Shown: piece after piece, positions 12,630 through 42,155 of the stretch
Layout of the letters: each line of letters opens with the position of its first letter
Position numbering within the stretch: the first letter of the stretch is position 1
Position numbers and translations under genes: made by a program
Assembly (NCBI GenBank): GCA_963575745.1
Contig: CAUYUJ010000178.1
Coordinates: forward strand, 62,001-117,187
DNA length: 55,187 nt
Reading direction: 5' to 3'
From: Prorocentrum cordatum
Taxonomy: Eukaryota
The notes under the pieces: model-generated
The model's input: only the letters and a program-made list of their open reading frames with translations
Databases searched by the model: none
Told to the model about the DNA's origin: nothing

Positions 12630-14679
12630 GGGGGGGGGGGGGCCCTCGCCGGGCTCCAGGACCGTCAGAGAACGGCTCGGGATGCAAAGCCGGGCCTGGG
12701 GAATGGGTCGAGACTCCCGGGGACGCCGCACTGAAAGCATCACGACGTCGCATCGCTTCGGCCCCTGGGCTCGAACTCGGGCTGGAGCTCCGGGCGCCAG
12801 AGACGGGGGCACCGCAGACGGGCGCACGGGGAACGCCGATATTCCCACGTTTGGCCACGCCCCCGTTTTTTCGGGGGCCCTTGGGCGCCGCGGACCGGGG
12901 GCACCGGAAAGGGGGGCATACGGAACAGCCTAAGCCCCCGTGTAGCTAAACCCCGTTCCCAGACATGCGACGTCCTGACTTTTGTAAGCCCAGACCCCCT
13001 CGAGCAATGAAAAAATCACGACGGGAGGTTTTTCCTAATTTTTGGCCTCTGGGGGCCCTTACTGGCCCTCGGGACCGTCAAAAAACGACTCAGGACGAAG
13101 AACCGGTCCCGGGGGATGGGTCCAGACCGCGGGGGGTCGACGTCATGAAAAATTCATGACGTCGGGGGTCTGGGTTTCCAGACATGCGACGCCCTGACTT
13201 TTGTAAGGGCGGCGTCCCTGGAAGTCCCGACCCTTCCCCCGGGACCGGTTTTTCGTCCCGAGCCGTTTCCTGACGGCCCCGAGGCCCGGCGAGAGCCCCT
13301 CTAGAGGCCGAGGTTGGCCAAAGTCCTCCCGTCCTGATTTTTGTTACCACGTGATCGTGTCGATCCGACGTCTCGATTTTTTCGAGACGCGGGCCCCCGA
13401 CCTCCCGACCACTTCCCCGGGACCGGTTTTTCATCCCGAGTCGTTTTTTGACGGTCCCGAGGCCCGGCGAGGGCCCCTAGAAGCCGAAAGCGGCGAAAAA
13501 CCTCCGTCTTGATTTTTTCAATTCGTTGGATCCCCAGTCGTGGGGCGAGAGGTTGAAAACGACGAGGAACCTCCGCCTCGATCTGTTCCCAGACGACCGA
13601 GGTCTGGGTCTGCGAGGCCCGGTCGCGCCCGTGGGCTCGGGCACTGCGCTCGGGGCCCCCACGACTGGGGATCCAACGCATTGAAAAAATCAAGACGGCG
13701 GTTTTTCGCCGCTTTCGGCTTCTATAGGGGCCCTCGCCGGGCCTCGGGACCGTCAAAAAGCGACTCGGGAGGAAACACCGGTCCTGGGGAACGGGTCGAC
13801 ACTGCCGGAGACCCCGCATTGAAGACATCACGACATCGGATCTCTGAGCCTGCGCGCTCGAGCCCACTGCGCTCCCAGACCTCCGACGTCGTGATTTTTT
13901 CATGACGTCGACCCCCAGAGGTCTGGACCCTTTCCCCGGGACCGGTTTTTCATCCTGAGTCGTTTTTTGACGCTCCCGCGGCCCGGTGAGGACCTCCGGA
14001 GGGCGAAAATAGCGAAAAACCTTCCGTCGTGATTTTTTCACGACTCGAGGGGGTCTGGGCTCGGGCCTGCGCTCGGGCGGCGCGTCTCGGGCCCGCTGCC
14101 GCCGGGCCTCCACGGGCCCAGCTGAGCTCCGCGCCGGCCGGGGCCGCCTGCCGCCCTCGGTCGCGCTCTCTCGGCGCCACTGCCCTCTCCTGGTCGGCTT
14201 GCGTCGGGTTTCGGGCCCCATGGGCCTCGAGAGAGATCCAACGCACTCCAAAAGATCCAGGAAAAAATCCAGATGGAGGTTTCTCGCAGCTTGTGGCCTC
14301 TATATGGGGCCCTCGCCGGGCCCCGGGACCGTCAAGAAAGGACTCGGGAGGAAGAGCCGGTCCTGGGAATGGGTCGAGATTGCCGGAGACCCCGCACTGA
14401 AAAAATCAGATCTCTGGGGGGTTCGGGTTTTCGTCGGGTTTCGGGGTTCGTCGGGTTTTCGTCGGGTTTCGGGCCCACGTTTGGATCGATCTGCAGGTCG
14501 GTCCGGCTCGAGAAGCGACCCCTACGATAGGGGGTCCAGGGCTCCAGAGGTGACTCTTCGCGATGTCTCCACGGTGTCGCGCCATCGGACCTCAGAGGAG
14601 GAGCGAAGGAGCTGCCGCAGCTCCCGCCCGTGCACCCAGACATCCGACGTCTCGAATTTCTCAGCACGAGGGCTCCCGA

Positions 14680-15670: not shown

Positions 15671-16116
15671 GGAGGCCCTCCTCCTGAAAAAAGTGCGGAA
15701 CAAATCCGCGCTGATTTTTCCTGCAATTATTACGTTATATCTCTGGGGCCGTGCTGCTTCACTTCTCGAGGCGGGTCGGCCTGTGAGGGCCCCGGGGCCC
15801 GCAGCCCGACGAGGCCGCCCAGCTCGGAGAAGTGGGGGCGCCAGGATCTCGCAGCCCAGACATCGGGCGTCTCGAACAAAATCGAGACGAGGGTTTTTCG
15901 TCGGTTTCGGCCTCTCGGGGCCCTCGCCGGGCCCAGGGACCGTCAAAAAGCGACGCGGGATGAAAAACCGGTCCCGGGGAAGTGATCGGGAGGTCGGGGG
16001 CCCACGTCTCGAAAAAATCGAGACGTCGGATGTCTGGGAGGGGAGGCCGCCGGGAGCGCAGACGTTACCCCCGCGACGTCGTTGTTGGGGCGAAGCGTCT
16101 CGGCGCGCCTATAGAC

Positions 16117-16271
16117 TTAAGTCGGGCCTGTCCCTCTACAGGGGGGATATTCAAAAATAGTCAAAAAATAGTCCGGGGACGATTTTCTGACTTTTTTTGA
16201 GCATTTGGGGGTATTTTGTAAGTCATTTCTTTCGCCAAAAATCCCCTTGTAGGGGGACACGCCCGACTTAA
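16117..16271. mobile_element. MITE family A, intact, 8-bp TSD
   Basis: ttaagtcgggcctgtccctctacagggg...ccccttgtagggggacacgcccgacttaa with a perfect TSD ctatagac (16109-16116 and 16272-16279). Confidence 0.92.
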
Positions 16272-16997
16272 CTATAGACCGACAAAACAATGCTCTAAGG
16301 ACCTTCTGCGGTCTGCACGGAATGTTCTCAGAACATTTCTTGTTGAGACTGTTTTGTTGGAACACATCGGGCGTGTATGTTCTAAGAGCATTGTTGTTGT
16401 TCTTAGAACATTCTCGGATTCTAGAACACGTCGTGCTAGGCCTATAGGATTGCCGTGACGGTCGGTCCCTGCTCACTACATAGCGTCGACGCCCGGAGGT
16501 TCGGGCCCAGACACGATCGCGTCGTGAAAAAATCATGGCGCGAGGTCTTGGGCCATGCTCGGCCTCGGGGGGCCCTCGCCGGGCCTCGAGACCGTCGAAA
16601 AACAGCTCAGGACGAAAAACTGGTCCCGGGGAAAGGGTCGGGACTGCCAGGGACGCCGTCCCGGAGAAAATCGGGACGCCGCCTGTCTGGGGACCTTGCC
16701 CCCAGGCCAAGTCCTTTTCGTTGACGGCCCCGAAGGCCCGGCGAGGGCACCCGGAGGCAGAAAACAGCGCAAAAGCCTCCCGTCGTGATTGTGCTCCTAG
16801 ACATGCGACGTCCTGAGTTTTTCGGGGCGGCGTCCCTGGAAGTCCCGACCCTGTCCCCGGGCCCTGCGTCTCATCCCGAGTCGTTTGTGTTACGGTCCCG
16901 AGGCCCGGCGAGGGCCCCTGGAGGCCGAAAATCGTGAAAAAACCTCCCGTCGTCATTTTGTTCATGATCAAAGGGGGTCTGGGAGGAAGGCCGTCGG

Positions 16998-17232: not shown

Positions 17233-17861
17233 GTCGGGGGAGCTGTCGGGGGAGCCCTGGAAATCCCTACCCTTGCCCCAGGACCGGTTTTTGATCCTGA
17301 GTCGTTTTTCGACGGTCCCGAGGTCTGGCGAGGGCCCCCCGAGGCCGAAAACGGCCAAAACACCTCCCGTCGTGCTTTGTTCATGACTCGAGGGGAGAGC
17401 ATACTGATTTTTAAAAAACGACGCGATCATGTCTGGGTTCATGACTCGAGGGGGTCTGGGAGGAAGGCCGTCGGGGGAGCCGTCGGGGGGGGGGCCGGCG
17501 GGCGGGGATGGGGCGGTCCATAGGCGGCCAGGGCACGGCGTCGCAGCCGCACGGCCCAGCTCCAGCAGCCTGCAGCTGGCGAGCGCAGCCGCACGGCCAC
17601 GTGGGCAACGACGACGACGACGACGAGAAAAGAGGAGGAGGAGGAGGAGGAGGAGGAGGAGGAGACGGAGGAGGAGGAGGAGGAGGTAGGAGGAGGAGGA
17701 GGAGGAGGGAGGGAGAGGAGGGAGGGAGGGAGGCGAGGAGGAGGAGGGAGGAGGAGGAGGAGGAGGAGGAGGAGGAGGAGGAGGAGGAGGGGGGGGAGGA
17801 GGGGGTGCTGTGAGGATCGCTGCGACAGGAGGAGAAACGCCTGGCTGCGAGCCAGCCCCAG

Positions 17862-17965
17862 GACACCTGCGTGGTCCTGAAGCTGAGCCGCCGGCAGCTC
17901 GAGCGCGCGCTGCAGGACTTCCCCGCCGTGCTGGAGATGTTCAACGGGATCCGCGGAGTCAGGAG
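17862..17965 (+). CDS. Exon of a cyclic-nucleotide-binding-domain (CNBD) protein: end of a CNBD
   Basis: Translates DTCVVLKLSRRQLERALQDFPAVLEMFNGIRGVR, which fits beta8 and the B/C helices of a CNBD. cag|G acceptor, ag|gc donor, GC3-rich codons. Confidence 0.7.
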
Positions 17966-18837
17966 GCCGCAGCTCCTCGGGCCACGCTCCCGTGCACATC
18001 CCCCCCCCATCCCCCTCTCCTCCATCCCCATCCCGGCGCCCCCCTCCCCCTCCTCTCTCCTCCTCCTCCTTCTTCCTCCTCCTCCTGCTCCTCCTCCTCC
18101 TCCTTCTGCTCCTGCTCCTGCTCCTCCTCCTCCTCCTGCTCCTCCTCCTCCTCCTCCTGCTCCTCCTCCTCCTCCGCCTCCTCCTCCTCCTGCTCCTCCT
18201 CCTCATCCTCCTCCGCCTTCTCCTCCTCAAGCTCAGCCCACCCTGCCAAATCGATCAGCGAAGCACCTATACCGATCAGAAATCTGAAGAAAGAGCAGCA
18301 ACTTCCATGGATTCCAGATTTCGTGCAAAAAACGGGAATCTGGACTGGACCCTCAACTTGTCTCGGATCTCCGCTGTGCTCGTGGAACTTACGTACATCT
18401 AGACTTGACTGATGTTCAAGACGCTTGGAGTGAAGTCCATTTTCTTAGCGTACATACAGTCAACGCGCCTAGTAAGGACGCGCGCCTTCATCTAGGGTAT
18501 CCTTGTGTCCTTGCCTCTGTGGCCCGTCCTTTGCCATTATCACTGGTCGCCCGCCGCCCAAAAAATCCCAAGTTCGGCCTCCAAGGGTCTTGCGTCCTTA
18601 CCACCCGTCCTTACTATACGTTTTGATTGTAATTGCCTTAACTCTCAGCTGGGGTATATGTGTTTCTGTTCCCTGGGGGCCGTCGCCGCCGCAACTTCTG
18701 CCAGCCTGCGCCCGCGCCGGGGATCCGGCCCGGGGGTTGCCCCCTGCCCGATCTCACCACTGCTCTTCACTCACGAGCACCCCCCTCCCACGCTCGGAGG
18801 GGCCGCCGGCGAGGGCCTTTCATCGCGTCCCTTCGCG

Positions 18838-18970
18838 CACACACACACACACACACACACTTTTTGGCTTCGCAGCGCCGCGCGCAGCGACAGGGCGTCC
18901 AAAGGTCAAGGAAGAGGGCGCGCGCGCGCGTCGAAAGGCCGAGCCCTCAAGCCGCTCAGAACGAGCAGCG

Positions 18971-19055
<85 letters not shown>

Positions 19056-19073
19056 CGGACACACGCACGCACG

Positions 19074-19129
<56 letters not shown>

Positions 19130-19560
19130 CAGACATACACGCACGCACTCTGGGCGTCGCGGACGGACCGGGCCTGGCCACACGTCGCTCGGACGCCCCG
19201 CGGGCGCGCGCGCGCGCCGGCCAAGAAGGATGAGAGTCCGCCGGGCCCTCACGGGGCATTGGCGGGGCAAGCGGAGCAACACACTCACACACACACACAC
19301 ACACACACACTTTTATCGTCGGCGGTTGGGCAGAGGTTGCTGCTCCGGCGATCGGGCATCAGTGGGGCGCCCGCAGAGCACGCGAGGAGAGGAGGAGACC
19401 CCGGCGCGACGGGAAGAGAGGAGGCCGGGCCTGCTGAGGCAAGTCCCGGCTGCGGCGGGGCGGACGCCGGGGGGGGGGAGCCAGCCGCGGCGCCGGGCAG
19501 CAGCTGGGGGGGAACACACACACACACACACAGACACACACACACACACACACACACACG
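18838..19560. repeat. (CA)n and (CACG)n microsatellites
   Basis: Read directly; several separate tracts. Confidence 0.95.
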
Positions 19561-20035
19561 CCGTCTGTGGCAGAAACAGCTCGAAGCTCATGTTGCGGTG
19601 GGCGCTAATCATACTACGCAGACCCATCACAATGTTGCATTGGCTTTTGTTCCGCAGTCCGCCATCCTATCATCTTCGTGCAAGACGATGTAACCTGATT
19701 CCGTCGCACACCATGCTGGCCGCCGCACTGCTGCTTCGCATCGACTTGTGTCATGGATCGTGAGGTCGTTGACGTGCTGCCCGAGATGTGCTGCCATGTG
19801 CACTGGCGCACGCGACGCAACCTGCGCGTGTCGCGCACAGGACGCACCCAGGGCACGTGGCTCATCTGGCGTGTCAGGCGCGCCCAGCACGCTCGGGCAC
19901 TTGGTGCAGCTCGCGAGCACGACGCACCTGGCGCCTGTCCTGCTTCCGGATGGCCGCCCATCGGATGGCGACCATTGCCTGTGTGGAAACTCTCGGGTGG
20001 GAGGAGGGGGGTGGGCACGCGCGAGACAGCTTGCC

Positions 20036-20106
20036 CCTCCTCCTCCTCCTCTTCCTCATCCTCATCCTCCTCCTCCTCCTCTTCCTCATCCTCATCCTCA
20101 TCCTCC

Positions 20107-20143
<37 letters not shown>

Positions 20144-20240
20144 CATCATCATCATCATCGTCATCGTCATCATCATCATCATCATCATCATCAACATCAA
20201 CATCATCATCATCATCAGCAGCAGCAGCATCATCATCCAT
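20036..20240. repeat. (CCT)n-(CAT)n compound microsatellite
   Basis: Read directly. Confidence 0.95.
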
Positions 20241-21700
20241 CTCTCGATCTCCTCTTGCCACTTCCACTCACTTCCCTCCTCTGCTCTTCCTCTCCTTCCT
20301 TCCTCTTCCCTCGCCCTGTCCGCGGGGGGTGGCACTGGCGGCCCTTCCGAGCCGCTCAACAGAGAAGGAGGAGGCCCTCCTGCTCCGCCTCCCCCTCCTC
20401 CTCAGGAGGAGGAGGAGGAAGAGGAGGAGGAGAACAGAGCTCAGGACTCCATCGCCAGTGTATTGTCACTATCTAGACCTTGGAAGCAGTGGTATACGCC
20501 AGTAGTGATGTCCGCTGGCATGAGCCTCGCACTGAAGCGCTCGACATCCCCAACCGCTGCAAGCGTCAACACGGCATCTCCAGAGCCACGTTGCGTGAAG
20601 AGTTGCCTTGGTCCTGGGGAGAGGGGGTTAAGGCAGACTGGCATGCTCTGGATCAGTGTCCCGCTCACTATCCCTACCATTCGGCCTGATGCAAACGCAT
20701 GTGGTGCTCATGAGACCAGAAAGGTCGCATAGCTGCACCACAAGATCGGATGCCATCCCAATGGAGGATCAAAAAGGCGCCTTCCGCCTCCATCCCTCGT
20801 CACGGGAGGGGAGGGGAGGATATCCGAGGGATCCCACATCCGGAGGAAAAAACTTTTGCTGTGGCGCTGGTCGCCTGGAGGTCCCTGTTGATTTTCCGGG
20901 GGGCCCTGGAGACCGAGACAGGCGCAGGTGCGTGGGGAATTGCCCGAAACCTTCCAAATTAGGAGGAGGAGGAGGAGGAGGAGGAGAAAGAGGAGGAGGA
21001 GGAGGAGGAGGAGGAGGAGGAGGAGGAGGGGGAGGGGGAGGGGGAGGGAGATCCGAGGGATCCCACATCAGGAGGAACACCTTCTGCTGCTGCGCCAGTC
21101 ACTTGGAGGTCTCGGTTGATCTTCCGAGGGCCCTTTTGGAGACCGAGACAGGCCCAGATGCGTTGGGAATTGCCCGAAACCTCCCACAAGGGGAAACACA
21201 CACAGCCCCCCAAAATTGATGTGTTTTATTACGCCGATTCGCTTCATTTACGAAGCTTTCTGCAGACCTCCGACATCTGGACTTTATCATTACGGAGTCC
21301 CCAGAGCTCTGGGCCACTTCCTCGGGACGGGTTTTTCGTACCAGGCCGTTTTTTTAGTGTCGCCTGGCCCGGCGAGGGCCCCCAGAGGCCGACAACAACG
21401 AGAAGCCGTCGCTCTGTTCTTGCTCAACACGTTGGAGGTCCGGGCACGTGACCAAACAAAGTAACAACAATAACCCGAATAACAGCAACAACAATTCGAC
21501 TAGGGGATCGACTATAGAATTGATGTACCCCCAAATCGATGTTCTCGTCGAATCTTCGGAAAACCCGTGGAGCGATCCACGAGCATCCTACGAGTTGCTC
21601 GCCCCCTCGACGGAAAAAAATCGAATCCGGGGGGAAGCCCATTCCGCCGTGGATCCCCCACGCTCGGAAAGCAACCAGCGAGGGTCGCCAGGGCCGAGCT

Positions 21701-22068
21701 TCAGGAGGGAAAGAAACACACAGACACAATCAATCGTCGATTCCCAGAAAATATGGGAAAATATGGAAAGTAGGGGGGAAGACGAAAACCCAGGTAAGTG
21801 GGAAAGTGGAGGAAAATGTTGGAAGATATGGGAAGCGGGGGGAAATATCGGAAGTGGGGAAAATATGGGAAGCGGGGAATCGGTTTATTTGTGTGTGTGT
21901 GTGTTTATTTGTGTGTCCCAGGGCTCCTCCTCCTCCTCCTCCTCCTCCTCCTCCTGTTCCTTTTCCTCCTCCTCCTCCTCCTCCTCCTCCTCCTCCTCCT
22001 CCTTTTCCTCCTCCTCCTCCTCCTCCTCCTCCTCCTCCTCCTCCTCCTCCTCCTCCTCCTCCCCTTCA
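21701..22068 (+). mobile_element. MITE family E (tcaggaggg...ccccttca), 5-bp TSD, with a (CCT)n tract inside its right end
   Basis: Perfect TSD gagct (21696-21700 and 22069-22073). Homologous to 31136-31290, 35581-35744 and 51254-51419. Confidence 0.8.
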
Positions 22069-22815: not shown

Positions 22816-23008
22816 CCCAGACCCCCTCGAGTCAGGAAAAGATCACGCCGGGAGGTTTTTCGCTATGTTCGGCTTCGGGGGGCCCTTCACGGGCTTCGGG
22901 GCCGTCAGAAAAGGACCCAGGATGAAAAGCTGGCCCCGGGGAAGGGGCCCAGACTTCTGGGGGTCGACGTCATGATAACACCAAAAAACATGACGTCGGG
23001 GGTCTGGG
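22816..23008. mobile_element. MITE family C, 2-bp TSD ga
   Basis: ga-cccagac...gtctggg-ga. Confidence 0.85.
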
Positions 23009-26745: not shown

Positions 26746-26829
26746 TCCCGAGCCTTCTTGATCCTCCTCCTCCTCCTCCTCCTCCTCCTCCTCCTCCTCC
26801 TCCTCCTCCTCCTCCTCCTCCTCCCTTTG

Positions 26830-26859
26830 CCTTTCTGGCTCAAGCCGTCCTGGCTCAAG
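26830..26859 (+). other. Two tandem relic dinoflagellate spliced leaders
   Basis: cctttctggctcaag (13/15) and ccgtcctggctcaag (12/15) against CCATTTTGGCTCAAG, the 3' 15 nt of DinoSL. They end 67 nt upstream of ATG 26927. Confidence 0.85.
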
Positions 26860-26926
26860 CCACACGCCACGCCCACGGGGCGCGGCGCGCCAGGACAGGG
26901 CGCGCACCCGAGGCGTGGGCCAGCCG

Positions 26927-29900
26927 ATGTCGGGCTCGCCGCCGCCCGCTGCGGAGTGGACCTCGCCGGCGCCGGCGGCCGAGGCCCGGCCCGCGGCGCC
27001 CGCGCGGGCGGAGTGGCCGCGCTTCGACCGCCCCCAGACCCGCGGCGCGCTGCCGCCGCCGATGGAGTGCTCGAGCCCCCCCGCCTCGCCCCGCCGCGTG
27101 AGCCTCGCCCCGCCCGGGCCGCCGGGCGCGGCCGGCCCCGACCAGGCGGAGCCGCGCGAGGAGGAGGAGGAGGAGGAGGAGGAGGAGGAGGAGGAGGAGG
27201 AGGAGGAGGAGGAGGAGGAGGAGGGAGGAGAGAGGAGGAGGAGGAGAGGAGGAGGAGAGGAGAGGAGAGAGGAGGAGGGAGGAGGAGAGGAGGAGGAGGA
27301 GGAGGGAGGAGGAGGGAGGAGGAAGAGCAGACGTGGAGGAGGAGGAGGAGGAGGAGGAGGAGGAGGAGGAGGAGGCCGGCGCCCCGCAGGAGGCCGGGCC
27401 GTGGGGCACGGTGGGCCCCGAGCGCGTGCGGTCGCCCGGCCCGCGGGCGGCGCACCTGCAGGAGGCGCGGGGCGGCGCCGGCGGCGGCAGCCTTCGCTCG
27501 TCGGCCGCGCCGCGGCCGCGGCCGTCGGGGGCTTCGGGCGCGTGCGCCGCGGGCGGCGCGGGCTTCCGGGACAGGCTCGAGGCGCTGGCGGCCACGCACG
27601 ACCTGGAGGTGGCGGACCTGCGGGGCGAGGTGCGCAGACGTCGGGCGTCTCGGGCAGAAGCGGGGCGGAGGCGTGCCGCCGTGCTCGGCCTCCGCGGGGC
27701 CCTCGCCGGGCCTCGGGGCCGTCAGAAAGCGACTCGGGGTGCGGTCCCGGGGAAGCGGTCGGGAGGTCGGGGGCCCGTGTCTCGAAAAAGTCGAGGCGTC
27801 GGATGTCTGGGGAGGTGGTGGACCTGCGGGGAGGGGTCATCGTCTTGCAGAACCAGGTGGAGCAGTACAGGTCGCTCCTCCACAGGGCGCAGGACAGTTT
27901 CGGGCGGATCTGTGGGGAGCTCCCGTCGGCTGCGGGCGAATGGCCTGCCGTGTCTGACCTGATGCAGGAGATCGCCAGCGAGATGGCGGGCGAGATGCAG
28001 GACGTTTGGGGCAATGCTGCCGACGGCACGCCGAAGGCATCGTGCTGCCCCTCGCAGGTTGGCGTCGTCGCAACGACGCCCGCGCGCAGCGCCACCCAGA
28101 AGCGGGCAACCGCCGTGGCCCTGAACAGCAAGTTGAACAAGGCGACGTCGAGGCAGGTGTCAGCAGTCATGCCGCCCGCAGCTCGAAGGGCTCTGACGCG
28201 CAACCTCTACCAGCAGCAGAAGAAGATCAAGGGCTCCTCGGTAAATCTGGACGGGACCTACCTGCAGCGTTTTGTTGGCCACTGTTCGTTCGACTTGGTT
28301 TGCGCCTGCATGATAATCACAAATTCTATCATCATCGGCGTTGAGGTCCAGTGGCTGACTACGCACGAGACAGAGCTGGCGGCGACCAAAATCTTGGGCC
28401 TGCTGTGCAGCTGCTTCTTCTTCATCGAGCTGGTGCTCCGCATCGTCGCTGATGGCATGCGACACTTCTTCGTCCTCTCCGACAACAGAAACTGGAACTG
28501 GTTCGACTGTGTTCTTGTGGTGATGTCGGTCTTCGACGGCGTGTCGCTGGCGGACGCTGGTGTAGCGGCCTCCACCGTCGGGGCGGGCGCGGGCTTCAAG
28601 ACCATCAAGATATTGAGGATTGTCCGCGTTGTGCGGGTATTCCGCTTCTTTAGCAAGCTCAGCCAGCTGGCGTTCATGATCATAGATTCTGTCAAGTCGT
28701 TGATGTGGGCCCTCGTCCTGTTGGGACTCGTCATTTACGTGTTCGCCATCTTCTTCACGCACTACACCACCGAGCACATCAGGCGCCAGGGGAAGGGTAA
28801 CACGTCCATCCATATCGATGAGCACTTCGGCAACCTGTGGTTGACTCTGTTCACCCTATTCCACACCATGCTCAACGGCATCAGCTGGTACACTCTACCG
28901 TCCGCGCTGTACACCATCCCTGGTTGGACAGGTCCGTTCTTGGCATTCGGATTTGTATGCTATCTGTCGTTCACCATGCTCGTCGTGATGAATATCATTA
29001 CTGGTGTGTTTGTGGACAACGCAGTGCAGACGGCTGGCACGCAGCGGGAGTTTCTGGTGCAGAAAGAGATGGAGGTCAAGGAGCAGTGGCGCAGCGAGAT
29101 GCGCAGCATCTTCCTGGAGATGGACGCCGATCGCTCCGGGACGGTGAGCAGGGAGGAGGTGTCGGACTTCTGCAACCACGAGCGCGTGCAGCACTACCTC
29201 ACCGCGCTCGGGCTGGACGTGCACGACACGGAGCGGCTGTTCGAGCTCCTCGACGTGAACCACGACGGCGAGCTCGACGTGGACGAGTTCCTGGACGGGT
29301 GCCTGCGCCTCAAGGGCGTGGCCCGCAGCATCGACGTCTGCAGCCTCATCCACCAGTCGCGCCCTCAGTGGGCCCCGGAAACGGCAGGGCCGTTCACCGT
29401 TTCCGAAAGAGCGTGCCCCTTGAGAATGGAACCGGCAAAACACCGGCGACCGGGAACGGCAACAGGATTGGAGCCGGAGCGGGGACCCGTGAAAGAACGG
29501 CGACGGAACCGGTAAAAAAACGGCCTTGCCGTTCCCGGGGCCGGAACCGGAACCAGAGCCGGAACCGGTAAAAGAACGGCGTCGGAACCGGCAAAAAAAC
29601 GGCTACTTCCCGTTTCCGGGGCCCACTAAGGTCGCGCCTGCTGTGCCGGCGCGTCGACGGCATCGACTCCACGCTGCGCACGCACCTGGGCAGCGCCAGG
29701 CACTCGGGCATAGCCAGGACCCGGGTAAGGGGACCCGGGTAGTGGTATGGCCCCGAAGCCCCCAAATTGTCCAGAATCACTAAGCCAGGTCTGCCGTAGC
29801 TGGTGTTTTGTCGGGTGGCGGCAGTTCCGGATAGTGGAACGGGGCGGGGGGGGCGTCCCCCAGTACACATCCCCAGACATCCGACGTCTCGATTTTTTCG

Positions 29901-30190
29901 AGACACGGGCCCCGGACGTCCCGACCACTTCCCCAGGGCCGGTTTGTCGCCCCGAGTCGTTTTTTGACGGCCCCGAGGCCCGGCGAGGGCCCCGAGAGGC
30001 CGAAAACGACGAAAAACCTCCGTCTCGATTTTTTCGAGACGCCCGATGTCTGGGTCACTGAACCAGGTACCACTAAACCCAGTTCTGCCAACGCCCGAGG
30101 CACCCCCGGCGCACCCTCCGCAGCCCGAGCAGGGCGGAGCGGCCGCCCTCGGCCCGGTCGGACCCCGCCGGCTTGGCGCAGCAGCGTTAG
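26927..30190 (+). CDS. Single-domain (6TM) voltage-gated cation channel with two C-terminal EF-hands; predicted exons 26927-27160, 27375-27629, 27815-29355, 29631-29699, 30100-30190 (729 aa)
   Basis: S2 FFFIELVLR, S3 WNWFDCVLV, S4 KTIKILRIVRVVRVFR, pore TLFHTMLNGISW, S6 MNIITGVFVD. EF loops DADRSGTVSREE (29123-29158) and DVNHDGELDVDE (29252-29287). The exons sum to 2190 nt, stay in frame and end at TAG 30188-30190. The core exon is well supported; the terminal exons are inferred. Confidence 0.88.
27161..27374 (+). repeat. (GAG)n tract interrupting the channel CDS; candidate GA-AG intron
   Basis: The protein-like frame changes across the tract (214 nt, not a multiple of 3). Boundaries are gag|ga ... 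ag|g. Confidence 0.55.
27633..27811. mobile_element. MITE family C copy forming a predicted GT-AG intron (27630-27814)
   Basis: cgcagac...gtctggg flanked by the direct repeat gaggtg (27627-27632 and 27812-27817). Removing 27630-27814 restores the frame. Confidence 0.85.
29364..29630. mobile_element. TIR element with 8-bp TSD forming a predicted GT-AG intron (29356-29630)
   Basis: TIR ctcagtgggccccggaaacgg / ccgtttccggggcccactaag (20/21) and perfect TSD gtcgcgcc. Internal ggaaccgg repeats. Confidence 0.9.
29703..30099. mobile_element. TIR element with 3-bp TSD forming a predicted GC-AG intron (29700-30099), with a nested MITE C (29872-30054, TSD tc)
   Basis: Ends ctcgggc...gcccgag with an imperfect longer TIR. 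TSD gca at 29700-29702 and 30100-30102. Confidence 0.75.
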
Positions 30191-30226
30191 AGCGCTCACG
30201 TCGCTCTCCTCCTCCCCAGAGATCCC

Positions 30227-30411
30227 CCCAGACCCCCTCGCGTCGTGAAAAATCACGACGGAAGGTTTTTCGCTATTTTCGCCCTCCGGAGGTCCTCACC
30301 GGGCCGCGGGAGCGTCAAAAAACGACTCAGGATGAAAAACCGGTCCCGGGGAAAGGGTCCAGACCTCTGGGGGTCGACGTCATGAAAAAATCACGACGTC
30401 GGGGGTCTGGG
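30227..30411. mobile_element. MITE family C (young subfamily) inserted at the end of another C copy (30412-30597)
   Basis: Near-identical to 32154-32339 and to the reverse complement of 13874-14059. Flanked by the 12-bp duplication cccagagatccc. Confidence 0.88.
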
Positions 30412-31135
30412 CCCAGAGATCCCACGTGTTGCAAAACAAAAATCGAGGCAGAGGTATTTCGAAGTTTTGGGCCCCTGGGGGCCCTCGCCGGGCCCCGGGG
30501 CCGTCAAAGAACGAATCGGGATGAAAAACCGGTCCAGGGGAATGGGTCGAGACTGCCGGGGACCCCGCAGGAAAAATCACGACATCGGATCTCTGGGTCC
30601 TTCCCTCGTTTTTAGCAGGCGGTCCGTTTCCCAGCAGTGCACCCCGCGATGTTGTCGTAGCTTCCATTCCCAGACTATTTTTTTGGCGCTCCGGTGCCAT
30701 CTTGCCGGGCCTTGGCGGCCCACAGCGGCAAGTTGCGTGCGTCGTGCGACCGGCAAGGCGATGGCGCCTGCTCCGATTTGCCCGTCCGAGTGGGCTGCGG
30801 CGTTCTCTCGGGGGGCGGGCGCGCCTGTCGCGGAGGCGGGCGCGGAAGAGAGAGCAGGTGCGGCAGCGTTCCCAGTGACGCGGGGCCTGGCGGCACAGGT
30901 GACGGACATAGTTTGCGCATCCAGGCCATCCAGACTTGATTTGTCGGCGATGTGTTGCGTTCTTTGTATACGGGAGTCCTCCTCGAAACAATGTTGCCTT
31001 GGATCTGTGACATTTGAAGGGGGCCTACCAATCGAATCACATGGGCGATCAGCCCGAGTGTGTCATCGATGTACCATGGCCGCACGCTCATGTGAGCTTA
31101 CGGTTGTTTAGCTTGGCCTAGAGAATTTGAATTGA

Positions 31136-32153: not shown

Positions 32154-32339
32154 CCCAGACCCCCTCGCGTCGTGAAAAAATCACGACGGAAGGTTTTTCG
32201 CTATTTTCGCCCTCCGGAGGTCCTCACCGGGCCGCGGGAGCGTCAAAAAACGACTCAGGATGAAAAACCGGTCCCGGGGAAAGGGTCCAGACCTCTGGGG
32301 GTCGACGTCATGAAAAAATCACGACGTCGGGGGTCTGGG
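32154..32339. mobile_element. MITE family C, 2-bp TSD ta
   Basis: ta-cccagac...gtctggg-ta. Confidence 0.88.
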
Positions 32340-34814: not shown

Positions 34815-34999
34815 CCCAGACAGGATCGCGTCGTAACAACCTCAGCACGGGAGGTTTTTGCCCGCTTTCGGCCTCGGGGGGCCCTCGCCGGGCCTCGGGA
34901 CCGTCAAAAAATGATTCAGGATGTAAAACCGGTCCCGGGGAAAGGGTCGGGGTTTCCAGGGACCCCGTATGGAAAAAATCAGGACGTCGCATGTCTGGG
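34815..34999. mobile_element. MITE family C
   Basis: cccagac...gtctggg with flanks ctagagct / ctagagcc. Confidence 0.85.
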
Positions 35000-36398: not shown

Positions 36399-36679
36399 GG
36401 CTAGGTGCGAAGCCCGAGCAGAGTGGCACGAGAGCCTCGCCGGTGGGCCCCCGCAGCGTTCTGCCGTCCCCGCGTTTCTGCACCGAGGCGTCGGCTCTCG
36501 GAGGCTGTTGGGCTGAACCGCCACGCCCCAGAGCGCTCTCCCTTTCTCCCTCTCCCTCTCCCTCCCTCTCTCTCTCTCTCTTGGCCGTGCTGATTGAATC
36601 TTGGAGGGCTCCTCCTCCTCCTCCCTCCTCGGGAGCTCTTCCTTAGTGTGGTCAGAAGTCACTTGCAGTCCGCAACGGG

Positions 36680-37935
36680 GTCCACTCCACTCCACTCCAC
36701 TCCTCCTCCTCCTCCTCCTCCTCCTCCCTCCCTCCTCCTCCCTCCTCCTCCTCCTCCCCCTCCTCCTCCTCCTCCTCCGCCTCCTCCTCCTCCTCCTCCT
36801 CCTCCTCCTCCTCCTTCTCCTCCTCCTCTTCCTCTCCACCGGGGTAGCCACGCGTCACGCGTCCAGAGATAGGATTTTTTGTCGGTGGAGGGGGTGAGAG
36901 CCGCTTCCCCGCGGGGAGGAGCAAGAGGCCCGCAGGGGCAGGAGGAGGAGGAGGAGGAGGACGGCGGCGACGACGACGGTGGATGAGGCCAAGAAGAGGG
37001 GAAAGAGGAGAATGGAGGAGGAGGAGGAGGAGGAGGAGGAGGAGCAGGACGAGAAGAACGAGGAGACAGAGCAGAGGAGGAGGAGTAGGAGAGGAGGAGG
37101 AGGAGCAGGAGGAGGAGGGGAGGAGAGGAGGAGAGCAGGCGGATGGAGCAGGAGAGGAGGTACCGAGGAGGAGGAGAAGGAGTAGGAGGAGGAGGTGGAG
37201 GAGCAGAATGGAGAGAAGGTAGCAGAGGAGGAGAGAGGAGGAGGAGGAGGAGGAGGAGATGAGGAAGAGGAGGAGGAGGATGAGGAGGAGGAGGAGGAGG
37301 ATGAGGGGAAGAGAGAGGAGGAGCACGTGCGGAGGAGGAGAAGGAGGAGGAGGAGGAGGAGTAACGAGGAGCATGAAGGAGGAGAGGACGAGCAGGAGGA
37401 GGGAGAGGGAGGAGGAGGAGAAGGAGGGAGGAGGAAGGAGGAGGAGGAGGAGGAGGAGGGGAGGAGAGTAGAGGAGAGGAGAGGAGAGGAGAGGAGAGGA
37501 GGAGGAGATGAGAGGAGAGGAGTAGGAGAAGGAAGAGGAGAGGAGCGGAGAGGAGAGGGAAAGGAGGGGAATGGAAAAAGGGAGAGAGCCAAGGGGAAGG
37601 GGAGGGGAGAGGAGAGGAGAGGAGAGGGGAGGAGAGGAAAAGGAAGAGAGGGGAGGAGGAGCATAGAGGAGAAGGAGGGGAGAGGTGAGGGGAGGGAAGG
37701 GAGGGGGGAAGGGGAGGGGAGGAGGGAGGAGAAGGAGGACAAGGAGAGGAATGGAGAGGAGGGAAGGAAGGAGGGGGGAGGAGGAGAAGGGGAGAAGAGC
37801 CAAGAGCAAAAGAGCAAAGAACAAAGGGGAGGAGGAGGAGGAGGAGGAGGGGCAGAGGAGGAGGAGGGCGAGGAGGAGGAGGCGGAGGAGGACGGAGGCG
37901 AAGGAGGAGGAGGAGGAGGAGCAGAGGAGGAGAAG

Positions 37936-37970
<35 letters not shown>

Positions 37971-38024
37971 GGAGGAGGAGGAGGAGGAGGTGGAGGAAGA
38001 AGGAGGAGCAGGGAGGAGAAGGAG
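36680..38024. repeat. Long (CTC)n tract followed by a ~1.1 kb degenerate (GAG)n/(GGAGA)n purine tract
   Basis: Read directly. Confidence 0.95.
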
Positions 38025-38040
38025 GGGCCGCCGCTGCCAG

Positions 38041-38122
38041 CGCGGAATTCGTGGACAAGATCTGCGAAGACGTTGAGGACGTCTTCTTCGCCCCAGGCGA
38101 GAGAATCGTCAAGGTTGGGGAG
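38041..38122 (+). CDS. CNBD gene exon (alpha-A to beta2): AEFVDKICEDVEDVFFAPGERIVKVGE
   Basis: Classic CNBD pattern F-x-PGE-x-I-x-x-x-GE, with a gag|gc donor. The 5' boundary is approximate. Confidence 0.8.
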
Positions 38123-40064
38123 GCGGCCCGAGCAGCGCCGGTCCTCTTGCGCGCGCGGCAGCACGTGGGGCAGAGAATGGGGAGGACTGCCGAGCTGAAG
38201 GGGGAGGAGGAGGAGGAGGAGGAGGAGGAGGGTCAGTGTAGACCCAAGTCGCATCCAAGATGTTGGAATAAGTTACAACAAACGCTCCCTCAGGCTCCTT
38301 CCTCGGAGGTCTCTCTACAAACATGTATTTCCCGTGCGGGAAGTGCCCCTTTGAAAGCATAGAGCCAACGCCACGAATTATCTTGACTGTTGCGTCTGGA
38401 CCACCTTAAACCTTAAACCGTCCCACTAAACCATGCTTGCGACTCCACCGCGAATCAACGTGACCGTTGCGTCCTGACAGTCCTAAATCGCACCAGAACG
38501 CCAGTCCTGGGACTTCAACCCTACGAACCTTTTGAACGATTGCAAACTTGCCGTCCCAGAACTAGCCGTGCTGGGCGTGGAGCTTGCCGTGCGCAGTCCC
38601 AGAATTAGGTGCTTGGTGGTTGGCGTCGCGTATGTCGACTTCCACAGTGGCGAGTTCGCGCACTTAGCTCCCAACAGCAAGTTTATCAAGGGAGAGGCAG
38701 CTGAGAATGCCCCCGCGGTCCCGGCCACGCGCCGCAGGTGGCAAGGCATGCCAGGCTGGCTCCAGTAAACAGCTACAGAGGAGACAGAGCAGCTTGCATC
38801 CGAGCAGCAGCCCAGAAATCCTCGCGATATCTCATGTCCAGCCCCCCTTTCATGCCCCAGCGTGTACCATTTGATAGGCTGGCCCCTCGCAAATGTCCAG
38901 GTTTCGGTACCGCCCAGCCGGACTCCGTGCAACCGAGGGAGAGGGCAGGTGCAAACATATTAGGCCTCTGGGAGGCTTCTTGGGGGAGAAGAATAAAAGT
39001 CTGGATCTTCAGGAGCCTAGGAGGCCAGCCTATTTTTGGTCACGCGCCTTCGCTTGGCACGTCACAATAGTGGGGCGGGAGGGCGCAAGCGAGATTACAT
39101 ACCATTGAGAGGGGTGCTTACCCAGCCCCATTAGATTCATGCGTCTTCGTAGGGCACGAAAACGGTAACACTTTATCCGCGTCCTATTTGTACAGCCTCG
39201 ACTATCCTCCTCACCCTCCTGCTCCTCCTGCTCCTCCTGCTCCTCCTCCTCCTCCTCCTCCTCCTCCTCCTCCTCCTCCTCCTCCTCCTCCTCCCCATGC
39301 TCCTCCTCCACCTGTTCCTCCTCCTCCCCTTATTCCTCCTGCTCCTCCTCCTCGTCCTCCTCCTCCTCGCCCTCCTCCTCCTCCACGTCCTCCTTCCAAC
39401 TTGACGGCCACCATGGCCGAGGGGTCCCGACCATCTCGGCGCGAATGGGCCCATGGCATAAGCCCCACGGAAGTTCCCGCTCGGGAGGCTTGGGCGCCAT
39501 GCTTGCCGCAACGCGACAACGAACGATGGGGTTTCGTTGTGAGTGAGCGGGATTGCGTATGCGGGTGAATCAGGATGCAAGCGAGCATGGTAGTATGAGT
39601 GTGCCTGAGTCGTCTGAGTGATTCTCGGTATGACTGAATACCAGTGTGAGTGAGTCTGAGTATGAGCCTGGTCTGAGCGAGTCCGAGTGCGAGAGAGTCT
39701 GAGCATGGTGAGTATGATAATGAGTGAGGGAGGGAGGCGGGAGGGAGTGAAGGAGTGAGGCGAAGGCATCTTACGAAGAACAGGAAACTCATGTTTAGGA
39801 TTCCTCCTCCGCCTCCCCCTCCTTCTCCTTCTCATCCTTCTCCCCCACCTCCTCCACCTCCTCGTCCTTTTCTTTCTCCTTCTCCCCATCCTTCTCCGCC
39901 TGACTCTCCTCCTCCCCAAGCAGTCTCTCGAGGCCCTCAGAGGCCTCCAGAAGTTTCCACAGGCACGCGGAAGCCCAAGAGGTAAGGACGATTCGTTTCG
40001 ATATTCCAATATCCTCTTCCAGATCTTCCTCCGACAACGGCGACGGCGGCAGCGACGATATATT

Positions 40065-40495: not shown

Positions 40496-40989
40496 CAACC
40501 CTGACGTCCTCCAGTTGTGGAGAATCCATAGAAGGTTTCTCCACAGTTCGGCCTCTGAGGGCCCTCGCCAGGCCCCGGGACCGCCAAAAAGTGACGGGAT
40601 GAGACATCTGCCCCGGAGAGCTCTTCTCAGACGCTGCCGATGTGGTTCCAGGGCCTCCCACGTTCCCGGCAGCACTGACGAGGCCCCAGGGAGGAAAAGC
40701 CACCCCGACCTCCAGACTTGAGATGACTAAACATCCCTCGGCGTTTACCAAACGACCCTGTCCTGTTCGATCCCTTCCTTACGTGCGTTGACGACTGGTT
40801 TCGCTTGACGAAGTGCTTCTTATGAGAGTGGCTACCACGCGCAGCTGCTAACGAGGCCTAGGAGCTCCACGAGCAAGCGCTGGCAGTCGGCCCAGGCTGT
40901 TGTTGTACGTGCTGCCACAGCTGTGGCCCTGGAGGCGATCAGAGACTGCTCACATGGCGGTTGGCCGATCCTGCGATAGATGCTTGGAC

Positions 40990-42155
40990 GTCCTCCTCCT
41001 CTTCCTCCTCCTCCTCCTCCTTCTCCTCCTCCTCCTCCTCCTTCTCCTCTCCTCATCCTCCTCCCTTCTCCTCCTCCTCCCCTCTCTTCCCCCTCCTCCC
41101 CCTCCTCCCCCTCTCCTCCTCCCCCCCTCCGCCTCCTCCCCCTTCTCCTCCCCCTTCTCCTCCCCCTCCTCCTCCCGCTCCTCCTCTCCTCCTCCTCCTC
41201 CTCCTCCTCCTCTCCTCCTCCTCCTCTCCTCCTCCTCATCCTCATCCTCTCCTCTTCTCCTCCTCCTCCTCCTCCTCCTCCTCCTCCTCCTCCTCCCCCC
41301 CTCAGCCTTCGGAGCAGGCCCCACAGGCCGCCCTGCCCTGCTTGATGAACGCCTGCGCTGCCACTCGCCGCTCGCTCTCCGAGGCCGTCGTCGAGGACGA
41401 GTTCTCCCTGAAGGTCGGCACGCTCTGGCCCGGCGACGTGTTCGGGGAGGCGCCGCCCCCCTTGAGCGGCTCGCTTCCTCCGCCCCCCCTCTTTCGGCCG
41501 CGTCTTCCTCCTGCTCCACCCCCCTCCTCCTCCTCCTCCTCCTCCTCCTCCTCCTACTCCTCCTCCCCTCCTCCTCCTCCTCCCTCCTCCTTTCATCATC
41601 ATCCATCATCATCATCAGCATCATCATCAGCTAGCAGCAGCATCAGCATCATCATCGCAGCATCATCATCTATCAGCATCCTCATCTCATCCTCATCCCT
41701 CATCCTCATCTTCATCCTCATCCTCAGCCTCCCCATTCTGCCTCCTCCTCCTCCTCTCCTACTCATCCGCTTCTTCCTCATCCTCCTCCTTCCCCTCCCT
41801 CTCCTCCTCTCCTCCTCCTGCGGCGCAGTGCGGCGCAAAGGCGGTCTCCGCCGCACGCCGCGTCTCCTCCTCCTCCTATTCCTCCGTCCTCCTCCTCCTC
41901 CTCCACTCCTCCTCCTCATCTTCTCCTCCTCCTCCTCTTCCTCCTCCTCCTCCTCCTCCTCCCCTCCCCCCCTCCTCCCCCCTCTCCTCCTACTCTCCTC
42001 CTCCTCCTCCTCCTCCTCACCCCTCCTTCCTCCTCCTCCTCCTCCTCCTCCTCCGCTCCTCCTCCCCACCCTCCTCCTCCTTCTCTCCTCCTCCTCCTTC
42101 TCCTCCTCCTCTTCCTCCTCCTCATCCTCCTCCTCCTGCTCCTCCGCCTCCTCTT
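40990..42155. repeat. (CCT)n and (CAT)n tracts surrounding the 41384 exon
   Basis: Read directly. Confidence 0.92.
41384..41449 (+). CDS. CNBD gene exon (beta4-beta6): AVVEDEFSLKVGTLWPGDVFGE
   Basis: Signature L-x-PGD-x-FGE, with gag|G acceptor and gag|gc donor. Confidence 0.82.

What the first reader, a model, noticed from the sequence alone, without database searches (positions are those of the whole stretch)
29356..29638. Clean introner: the TSD supplies the GT donor and the TIR supplies the AG acceptor
Seen: a 267-bp element with a 20/21 TIR (CT[C/T]AGTGGGCCCCGGAAACGG) and a perfect TSD GTCGCGCC. Splicing 29356-29630 turns the out-of-place ORF tail into SLIHQ-SRLLCRRVDGIDSTLRTHL, a plausible helix after the EF-hands. 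Because the TIR starts with CT, the element ends in AG in either orientation. Inferred: any insertion whose TSD starts with a usable donor dinucleotide becomes a precise intron.
Basis: partly seen in the sequence, partly recalled or inferred. Interest (0 to 1): 0.8.

Follow-up and report, generated by a model that had tools for sequence, protein, structure and literature searches.

The report
Transposon-made intron in dinoflagellate channel gene
A 267-base mobile element sits inside an ion-channel gene of the dinoflagellate Prorocentrum cordatum and is missing from the message exactly as an intron would be, a way of making introns already well described in related algae.

Summary
A 267-bp element (29364-29630) has 21-nt terminal inverted repeats (20/21) and a perfect 8-bp target duplication, GTCGCGCC. 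It interrupts the coding exon of an Ion_trans + EF-hand channel gene. The best protein match (100% identity) is annotated Prorocentrum cordatum.

Assembled contigs from 4 of 4 public runs laid, one on record as polyA RNA, join 29355 to 29631 (GT..AG, 275 nt skipped). The same contigs skip a GC..AG intron further downstream. The public gene model ends with exactly the spliced reading. Close paralogues keep the peptide across the junction.

It is not new. The same design (8-nt TSD of form GHN6, 3' site carried by the element, both orientations) is published for Polarella glacialis classes 6, 8 and 10 and likened there to Aureococcus. Introner-type introns are also reported in bulk for P. cordatum.

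Untested: other copies of this family, TSD statistics, and an autonomous partner. No genome was available. No DNA run shows that the RNA sources carry the insertion. A non-canonical skip in the 3'UTR of the same contigs is unexplained.

Verdict: real, ordinary, a new member of a known kind.

The parts
27815..29355 (+). Upstream coding exon of the channel gene (Ion_trans domain plus EF-hand pair). It ends in CA of a CAG codon.
   Evidence: Pfam Ion_trans E 1.1e-27 and EF-hand_1 E 8.7e-11 on 28100-29355. tblastn of P0001 covers 27803-29362 at 99.6%. The exon start comes from the intron-0 solution.
29356..29630 (+). The intron: 275 nt, GT..AG, phase 2, followed by exonic G. It equals the left TSD copy plus the element.
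   Evidence: Joint 29355->29631 'skips 275, GT..AG, 8 shared letters' in one contig each of X1, X2, X8 and X16 (table 5). The P0001 sequence agrees.
29356..29363 (+). Left copy of the 8-bp target-site duplication GTCGCGCC. Its first two bases are the 5' splice site.
   Evidence: (D8).
29364..29630 (+). Non-autonomous TIR element (MITE-like), 267 bp, GC 0.625. No long ORF of known family and no Rfam match.
   Evidence: The folded RNA pairs the two TIRs (MFE -150.2 kcal/mol, z -5.30).
29364..29384 (+). Left terminal inverted repeat, CTCAGTGGGCCCCGGAAACGG.
29470..29623 (+). Internal tandem duplication (period 79, 1.9 copies, 84% matches). It includes a second, inner copy of the subterminal part of the right TIR at 29519-29542.
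   Evidence: TRF; D2, I2.
29610..29630 (-). Right terminal inverted repeat (CTTAGTGGGCCCCGGAAACGG on the minus strand). Its last two plus-strand bases, AG at 29629-29630, are the 3' splice site.
29631..29638 (+). Right copy of the TSD. It is exonic, and its first G gives the AG|G context.
   Evidence: An AGG acceptor motif occurs in 79.7% of P. cordatum introns according to PMC10666404.
29631..29699 (+). Next coding exon (SRLLCRRVDGIDSTLRTHLGSAR...).
   Evidence: Contig pieces 29631-29697 (table 8).
29700..30099 (+). Next intron: 400 nt, GC..AG|G after shifting the reported joint by 2 within its 6 shared letters (AGGCAC at both ends). It holds a copy of an abundant ~185-bp TIR family at 29872-30052.
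   Evidence: joint 29697->30098, 6 shared letters.
30100..30189 (+). Last coding exon, with stop codon TAG at 30187-30189.

Best explanation
A short non-autonomous cut-and-paste DNA transposon (267 bp, 21-nt TIRs, 8-bp TSD) inserted into the coding exon of a single-domain voltage-gated cation channel / EF-hand gene of Prorocentrum cordatum. It now behaves as a spliceosomal intron, that is, an introner-type intron. The 5' splice site GT is the first two bases of the upstream TSD copy. The 3' splice site AG is the last two bases of the element's TIR. The downstream TSD copy stays in the exon, and its first G gives the AG|G context that dinoflagellate acceptors favour. Because the intron is exactly the element plus one TSD copy, splicing restores the pre-insertion mRNA.

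Shown: the anatomy; the exact 29355|29631 join in assembled contigs of four runs; agreement with the public gene model; conservation of the restored peptide in paralogues.

Inferred: that removal is done by the spliceosome in cells that carry the insertion; that the element belongs to a multi-copy family; that it would work in either orientation.
For: Anatomy: (TIR 20/21, TSD 8/8, 0 of 100 shuffles give a TIR match).

Host gene: Ion_trans E 1.1e-27 plus EF-hands.

Junction: one contig in each of 4 of 4 laid runs (X16 on record as polyA RNA-Seq; X1, X2 and X8 of unrecorded kind) joins 29355 to 29631 with GT..AG and 8 shared letters. The same contig (for example X1 record 3, 688 nt, 0 other letters) also skips 29698-30097, which becomes GC..AG after a 2-nt shift. 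That makes it a multi-intron transcript.

Run shares: the 15 best runs hold 0.71-0.74 of the sampled words of 28200-29760. By my arithmetic, exons alone would give about 0.76.

Gene model: P0001 (100% identity, named P. cordatum) ends ...SLIHQSRLLCRRVDGIDSTLRTHLGSARHPRR...AQQR, identical to my spliced translation.

Conservation across the junction: P0002 has SLIHQSRQVCRRLDDMD, P0007 SLIHQSRQLCKRIEEID and P0008 SLIHQQRQLCKRLDEID. The CLRLKG...helix region was found in 72 of 81 homologues.

Retention would be harmful: it gives a stop at 29513-15, and 275 is not a multiple of 3.

Literature: P. cordatum uses GT/GC/GA donors (24.7/51.4/23.8%) and AGG acceptors (79.7%), and 2.4% of its introns carry introner signatures (PMC10666404, passages and supplement passages). 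Polarella classes 6, 8 and 10 have an 8-nt TSD of form GHN6, a 3' site from the element end and both orientations (bioRxiv 10.1101/2020.10.14.339549, parts 1-2 of 4 read).
Against: All laid data are assembled contigs, not raw reads, and no DNA run of the organism was available. I therefore cannot show that the cells which made the RNA carry the insertion at this locus. An insertion-free strain or near-identical paralogue would give the same contig.

The GT at the start of the TSD is weak evidence on its own: 23% of positions in this CDS start G[T/C/A].

The same contigs also skip 379-381 nt in the 3'UTR with non-canonical ends (GA..CT or TC..CT). The two forms differ by 2 nt between runs. So not every skip in these contigs is an ordinary intron.

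A perfect direct repeat flanking a strong hairpin is also the substrate for reverse-transcriptase jumping.

Only one copy of the element was found anywhere, so family status is unproven.

Contigs drop rare variants. X8 and X16 show some depth inside the element (table 2), so unspliced forms or other copies exist.
Confidence: 0.8

Rival explanations
1. The element is not spliced. The window's copy is a recently hit and possibly dead gene copy, and the transcripts come from an insertion-free strain or a near-identical paralogue. In that case the join is an empty site seen in RNA.
For: No DNA run was available, and all holders have at most 0.74 of the words. The perfect TSD and 20/21 TIR point to a young insertion. 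The 3'UTR of the same contigs differs from the window by a 379-381-nt non-canonical skip that comes in two forms across runs, which suggests DNA-level differences between sources. Diverged paralogue contigs are present in all 4 runs (tables 3 and 8). A GT-initial TSD is expected by chance in about 23% of insertions.
Against: X1, X2 and X8 contigs match the window with 0 other letters over more than 2 kb of exons and 366 nt of 3'UTR (table 8). All three CDS interruptions of this gene model have G[T/C]..AG|G ends, while the only non-canonical skip lies in the UTR. Under pure chance, three of three is about 1% by my rough estimate. The transcripts retain 7-9 nt of the 3'UTR element's left end, so they are not from a never-inserted locus. 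The published gene model treats 29356-29630 as an intron. Only one gene copy lies in the window.
Confidence: 0.1
2. The join is a cDNA artefact. Reverse transcriptase jumps across the TIR hairpin between the two 8-nt direct repeats, so the element is in the RNA but missing from the libraries.
For: A strong stem brings the two TSD copies together (MFE -150.2 kcal/mol, z -5.30). There are 8 shared letters at the joint. A neighbouring 3'UTR skip across two hairpins has non-canonical ends and 0-4 shared letters, which looks like such an artefact.
Against: The same join dominates the assembly in 4 of 4 runs from 4 studies. In X1 and X2 the depth in the two bins that hold the element's ends is fully accounted for by contigs ending in the TSD or starting in the next exon, by my arithmetic tables 2 and 8, and the middle bin (29460-29563) reads 0. 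Artefacts are usually a minority of molecules. The ends are canonical GT..AG|G. Introners of exactly this design are documented as efficiently spliced in other dinoflagellates.
Confidence: 0.05
3. Removal happens at the RNA level but is guided by the TIR hairpin rather than by GT/AG recognition, as with Amoebophrya-like or euglenid-like non-conventional introns. The GT..AG here would be a coincidence.
For: The same transcripts lose a TIR-bounded 379-381-nt stretch of the 3'UTR with non-canonical ends. Non-canonical TIR/TSD introns are described in Amoebophrya and euglenids (PMC11282704, passages).
Against: The 3'UTR skip has simpler explanations: a DNA deletion or an RT jump. There is no direct evidence for such a mechanism in core dinoflagellates in what I read.
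Confidence: 0.05

Closest known systems
Polarella glacialis introner-like element classes 6, 8 and 10 (Roy et al., bioRxiv 10.1101/2020.10.14.339549; later Curr Biol 2023, not read)
   Same: 8-nt TSD of form GHN6. [quoted passage not shown] The element can make introns in either orientation. The host is a dinoflagellate with GT/GC/GA donors.
   Different: Different species. Sequence relatedness to those classes was not tested, because their sequences are in supplements I could not open. Copy number here is unknown, against 201-970 introns per class there.
Aureococcus anophagefferens introners (Huff, Zilberman & Roy 2016, Nature; not held, known to me only through and recall)
   Same: [quoted passage not shown] An 8-bp TSD is mentioned for an Aureococcus family in PMC9860276.
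   Different: Stramenopile host. The family shown in PMC9860276 Fig. 2F carries both sites and adds 12 nt to the mRNA, whereas here the mRNA is restored exactly.
Symbiodinium introners (PMC9860276 Fig. 2B; Roy et al. preprint Fig. 1)
   Same: [quoted passage not shown] The element starts with CT right after the TSD.
   Different: 4-nt TSD there, 8-nt here, which implies a different transposase.
Micromonas pusilla introner elements (as summarised in PMC11282704)
   Same: MITE-like, with TSD plus TIR. One splice site comes from the element and one from the TSD.
   Different: 3-nt TSD. The element gives the 5' site and the TSD gives the 3' AG, which is the mirror image. The host is a green alga.
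'IE+' introns of P. cordatum in Dougan et al. 2023 (PMC10666404)
   Same: Same organism. [quoted passage not shown]
   Different: That screen used a generic pattern (IR 8-20 nt, DR 3-5 nt within 30 nt of the ends). No families, TSD lengths or splice-site origins were described. An 8-nt TSD with a 21-nt TIR lies outside its stated pattern.

Membership tests
TIR/TSD (MITE-type) introner that co-opts its 5' splice site from the TSD | Terminal inverted repeats at the element ends | tested here: met
   21-nt TIR, 20/21. The only 2 matches in the window at up to 3 mismatches; 0 of 100 shuffles matched.
TIR/TSD (MITE-type) introner that co-opts its 5' splice site from the TSD | Target-site duplication directly flanking the TIRs | tested here: met
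   GTCGCGCC 8/8 at 29356-63 and 29631-38.
TIR/TSD (MITE-type) introner that co-opts its 5' splice site from the TSD | Intron boundaries are the first bases of the upstream TSD (G[T/C/A]) and the last bases of the element (AG) | tested here: met
   Joint 29355->29631, ends GT..AG, in contigs of 4 of 4 runs.
TIR/TSD (MITE-type) introner that co-opts its 5' splice site from the TSD | Removal restores an intact, conserved reading frame | tested here: met
   The spliced translation equals P0001. The junction peptide is conserved in paralogues.
TIR/TSD (MITE-type) introner that co-opts its 5' splice site from the TSD | Removal happens in RNA of cells whose DNA carries the insertion | not testable with these tools
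TIR/TSD (MITE-type) introner that co-opts its 5' splice site from the TSD | Many similar copies forming introns in unrelated genes | tested here: inconclusive
   1 copy in 55 kb. No genome is held. The metagenome scan gave 10 single chance hits without a second TIR. Prokaryote genomes gave 0 and viral contigs 0. A protein-level search with the element's open frame gave 3 weak hits at 25-30% identity. One X16 contig resembles the element but 'goes back 101', which hints at a variant copy.
TIR/TSD (MITE-type) introner that co-opts its 5' splice site from the TSD | Intron position is lineage-specific, i.e. absent from orthologues and paralogues | not tested
   Only protein sequences of paralogues were available, not their gene structures.
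hAT-superfamily non-autonomous element | 8-bp TSD | tested here: met
   That 8 bp is typical of hAT (and of some other superfamilies) is recalled, not taken from a call.
hAT-superfamily non-autonomous element | Characteristic terminal motif and a related autonomous copy with a hAT transposase | tested here: inconclusive
   The ends read CTYAGTG. A YARNG-like motif (recalled) sits 2 nt inside the ends. No transposase domain was found in the 38 of 121 ORFs of at least 170 aa that I scanned against Pfam. I do not file the element as hAT.
IE+ intron as defined in Dougan 2023 / Farhat 2021 | Inverted repeat of 8-20 nt and direct repeat of 3-5 nt within 30 nt of each intron end | tested here: inconclusive
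   The intron has both kinds of repeat, but they are longer than the stated ranges (21 nt and 8 nt). I cannot tell whether their screen counted it.

The most novel reading that the evidence does not exclude
P. cordatum may clear TIR elements from its messages by a route that does not depend on GT/GC/GA-AG ends. In the same transcripts that lose this element, a TIR-bounded pair of ~185-bp MITEs in the 3'UTR is also missing, with non-canonical ends and two junction forms. If that removal happens in RNA, a core free-living dinoflagellate would have Amoebophrya-like or euglenid-like structure-guided intron removal, and the 'clean' GT..AG introner would be one end of a wider tolerance mechanism for transposons in transcripts.
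Probability: 0.07. Interest if true: 0.7.

Novelty: new member of a known kind. Interest (0 to 1): 0.22.

Why it matters
This is a clear single-locus example of how a cut-and-paste transposon becomes an intron without changing the protein. It occurs in a bloom-forming dinoflagellate whose very long, intron-rich genes are only coarsely characterised for such elements. The published P. cordatum screen looked for 3-5-nt direct repeats, so an 8-bp-TSD family would add a second transposition machinery to its intron makers. That parallels the diversity seen in Polarella. The mechanism itself is established, so this does not change any general view. Its practical value is for annotation: such insertions should be modelled as introns, not as gene truncations. 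It is also a seed for a genome-wide census of this TIR family.

Tried and rejected

Public collections:
- An 18-nt TIR core in JGI metagenome contigs gave 10 loci. Each had a single site, none had a second TIR, and similarity extended at most 26 nt. I read these as chance hits.
- The 21-nt pattern gave 0 hits in prokaryote genome contigs.
- The 18-nt core gave 0 hits in viral contigs.

Protein-level search with the element's only fully open frame (86 aa, minus strand) against 1.84 billion representatives: 3 hits at E between 4e-9 and 6e-4, with 25-30% identity. They look like composition matches and are no evidence for other copies.

Earlier notes of this scan: none by place or by sequence.

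Rfam on 29200-30700: nothing in the element, and two sub-threshold hits elsewhere.

In-window transposase: none among the 38 largest of 121 ORFs.

My first guess of the organism, a haptophyte, was wrong. Protein names point to Prorocentrum cordatum. The ESM Atlas look-up gave only generic Ion_trans/EF-hand clusters.

Huff et al. 2016 could not be read because it is not held. The bioRxiv supplements of Roy et al. are closed, so I could not compare the TIR with the Polarella classes.

'Prorocentrum' does not occur in 13 of the 14 supplementary files of PMC12130899 that I searched. No paper in the library holds 'Prorocentrum' together with 'target site duplication' or 'miniature inverted-repeat'.

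Low or zero contig depth inside intron 2 and in parts of the 3'UTR elements is not used as evidence.

Full report
**1. The observation**

Reading 28800-30200 shows GTCGCGCC at 29356-29363 and again at 29631-29638. The 267 bases between them (29364-29630) begin CTCAGTGGGCCCCGGAAACGG and end with the reverse complement of CTTAGTGGGCCCCGGAAACGG. The repeat finder reports the direct repeat (D8) and the inverted arms (I1, 34 nt at 88% when the flanks are included).

A pattern search with up to 3 mismatches finds only these two sites in the 55,187-base window. None of 100 dinucleotide-preserving shuffles gave a match.

The element has an internal tandem duplication of period 79 (1.9 copies, 84% matches, 29470-29623). 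That duplication includes an inner copy of the subterminal TIR sequence. It has no Rfam match. Its GC content (0.625) is like that of the host exon (0.619).

**2. The host gene and the organism**

The frame that enters the element from the left encodes an Ion_trans domain (E 1.1e-27) followed by an EF-hand pair. Read through, it stops at 29513-29515 inside the element.

A search of the large protein collection with the C-terminal part returned 81 proteins with E at or below 1e-10. The best is P0001: 646 aa, 100% identity, named 'unnamed protein product, partial [Prorocentrum cordatum]', on a 117-kb contig. Several other P. cordatum and dinoflagellate proteins follow. The window is therefore nuclear DNA of this dinoflagellate or a very close relative. 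Its GC of 0.50-0.69 per 2 kb fits the 59.7% reported for that genome (PMC10666404, passages).

tblastn of P0001 against the window gives four pieces and one gene copy.

**3. Is the element removed from the message?**

No whole genome is held, so I used public runs. Of 24 runs listed, 20 hold part of 28200-29760 and 17 hold half or more of its sampled words. The best 15 hold 0.71-0.74. By my arithmetic, about 0.76 is expected if a run holds the exons but neither the element nor the next intron.

I laid Logan contigs of four runs from four studies on 27900-31000. X16 is on record as polyA RNA-Seq; X1, X2 and X8 are of unrecorded kind. In 4 of 4 runs one contig joins 29355 to 29631 ('skips 275, GT..AG', 8 shared letters, 67 letters on the shorter side).

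The same contig goes on to skip 29698-30097. That joint has 6 shared letters; shifted by 2 it becomes 29700-30099, GC..AG followed by G. The contig then skips 379-381 nt in the 3'UTR. X1 record 3 (688 nt) has 0 other letters over all four pieces.

My spliced translation...CSLIHQ|SRLLCRRVDGIDSTLRTHLGSAR|HPRR...AQQR*, is letter for letter the C-terminus of P0001. The deposited gene model therefore already treats 29356-29630 as an intron.

The restored peptide is conserved:
- P0002: SLIHQSRQVCRRLDDMD
- P0007: SLIHQSRQLCKRIEEID
- P0008: SLIHQQRQLCKRLDEID

The CLRLKG-anchored region could be lined up in 72 of 81 homologues; I looked only for that motif, and 9 lacked it. A diverged paralogue contig in all four runs runs through the insertion point without any element (tables 7 and 8).

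**4. How it most likely works**

The intron is exactly one TSD copy plus the element. GT (29356-57) comes from the duplicated target. AG (29629-30) is the end of the TIR. The first G of the retained TSD copy supplies the exonic G of the AG|G context, which 79.7% of P. cordatum acceptors have.

Both ends of the element start with CT, so the opposite orientation would also end in AG. In RNA the two TIRs pair (MFE -150.2 kcal/mol against -124.0 ± 4.9 for shuffles, z -5.30), which brings the two splice sites together.

The intron is phase 2 and 275 nt long, not a multiple of three, so retention would truncate the protein.

*Shown:* the anatomy; the exact join in contigs; agreement with the gene model; conservation.

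*Inferred:* spliceosomal removal in insertion-bearing cells; family membership; function in both orientations.

**5. What weakens the reading**

- The data are contigs, and no DNA run of the organism was among the holders. I cannot show that the RNA sources carry the insertion.
- A TSD beginning G[T/C/A] is expected in 23% of random insertions into this CDS. GT..AG alone is therefore weak evidence.
- The third skip in the same contigs lies in the 3'UTR (stop codon at 30187-89) and is non-canonical. X1 and X8 skip 30221-30601 (GA..CT, no shared letters). X2 and X16 skip 30223-30601 (TC..CT, 4 shared letters).
- That stretch is two adjacent ~185-bp TIR elements, each folding as its own hairpin. 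The first, A (30227-30411), is 99.5% identical to 32154-32339. The second, B (30412-30597), has no close copy. The transcripts keep 7-9 nt of a B-like left end.
- So this skip is not a never-inserted site. It could be a DNA deletion or excision allele in the expressed copy or strain, a reverse-transcriptase jump, or non-canonical RNA removal. I could not decide between these. It shows that a skip in these contigs need not be an ordinary intron.
- Against the 'empty site' rival for the main element, all three interruptions of the CDS (27630-27814 GT..AG|G, 29356-29630 GT..AG|G, 29700-30099 GC..AG|G) are canonical, while the UTR one is not. The exons of X1, X2 and X8 are also identical to the window over more than 2 kb.
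- X8 and X16 have some depth inside the element. One X16 contig resembles the element but 'goes back 101' with 3 extra letters, which would fit a copy with another internal repeat unit. This hints at other copies or at unspliced RNA but proves neither.

**6. Other copies and an autonomous partner**

None was found.
- The window holds one copy.
- The metagenome scan gave 10 single-site hits without a partner TIR.
- Prokaryote genome contigs and viral contigs gave 0 hits.
- The protein-level search with the element's open frame gave 3 weak hits.
- No transposase domain turned up in 38 of 121 ORFs of at least 170 aa.
- A TIR-plus-TSD scan of the window (5,901 inverted pairs) found one other non-repetitive element with an 8-bp TSD, at 16117-16271 (TIR 24 nt, TSD CTATAGAC). 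It belongs to an unrelated, AT-rich family.

**7. Comparison with what is known**

The design is published. [quoted passage not shown] Gozashti et al. [quoted passage not shown]

For P. cordatum itself, Dougan et al. 2023 report introner signatures in 2.4% of introns. They used a generic pattern (IR 8-20 nt, DR 3-5 nt) and did not describe families.

'Prorocentrum' does not occur in the main text or in 13 of the 14 supplementary files of Gozashti et al. 2025 that I searched. No paper in the library combines 'Prorocentrum' with 'target site duplication' or 'miniature inverted-repeat'.

This 8-bp-TSD element is thus a new member of a known kind, in a species where the kind is already reported in bulk. 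Its superfamily is open: 8-bp TSDs are typical of hAT among others (recalled), but neither a terminal motif nor a transposase supports an assignment.

**8. Verdict**

The local interpretation is supported (confidence 0.8 that this is a spliced, transposon-derived intron using the TSD's GT and the TIR's AG). The general rule is plausible from the literature but untested here, and it is not novel. Interest is low to moderate. The unexplained 3'UTR skip is the only item that could lead somewhere new.

Noticed in passing
window 30210-30605: In contigs of 4 of 4 runs the 3'UTR lacks 30221-30601 (X1, X8; GA..CT) or 30223-30601 (X2, X16; TC..CT, 4 shared letters TCCC). The stretch is two adjacent ~185-bp TIR elements: A at 30227-30411 and B at 30412-30597. 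A 12-nt repeat, CCCAGAGATCCC, lies on both sides of A, and TCCT lies at 30210-13 and 30598-601. The transcripts keep 7-9 nt of a B-like left end. The cause could be a DNA deletion or footprint, an RT jump over the hairpins, or non-canonical RNA removal; this is undecided.
   Followed up: partly
window, about 31 places (e.g. 2005-2187, 3603-3789, 12989-13174, 13874-14059, 22816-23008, 32154-32339, 34815-34999): There is an abundant ~185-bp TIR family (CCCAGAC...GTCTGGG with an inner hairpin of the GTCGTGAAAAATCACGAC type). Alignments of at least 120 nt occur at about 31 places in 55 kb. Copies at 32154-32339 and 13874-14059 are 99.5% and 98.4% identical to 30227-30411, so the family seems recently active. 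Several full copies are flanked by 2-nt direct repeats (TA, CT, AG, GA, TT).
   Followed up: partly
window 27630-27814 and 29700-30099: The other two CDS introns of the channel gene also look transposon-made. Intron 27630-27814 (185 nt, GT..AG) is a copy of the ~185-bp family flanked by GAGGTG on both sides. Intron 29700-30099 (GC..AG) is flanked by AGGCAC on both sides and holds a family copy at 29872-30052. In both, AG|GY inside the repeated flank could supply both splice sites, as described for Polarella class 14. The first intron rests on the gene model only, because the laid stretch started at 27900.
   Followed up: partly
window 16109-16279: A 155-bp AT-rich MITE lies at 16117-16271, with 24-nt TIRs (TTAAGTCGGGCC...) and a perfect 8-bp TSD, CTATAGAC. 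It is a second element with an 8-bp TSD in the window. Its ends are TTAAG/CTTAA, so it carries no AG end. Whether it lies in a gene was not checked.
   Followed up: no
window 29503-29603 (run X16): One X16 contig matches the element's interior but 'goes back 101' (29603 to 29503) with 3 extra letters. This would be expected from a copy or allele with an extra unit of the 79-bp internal repeat. X8 and X16 also show some depth in the element's left part.
   Followed up: no
window 17640-22060, 26760-27400, 36600-38300, 40800-42700: There are long GAG/CTC-type trinucleotide tracts (poly-Glu/Ser/Pro in translation) with strong GC and AT skew. They dominate the inverted-repeat and TSD scan as false positives.
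   Followed up: no
window 28343-29363 (runs X1, X2, X8, X16): All four runs hold contigs of diverged paralogues of the channel gene (e.g. 14 differences in 140 nt at 29224-29363, and 30-31 in 365 nt at 28479-28843). This fits the many P. cordatum paralogues in the protein search (P0002-P0012, 77-83% identity).
   Followed up: partly
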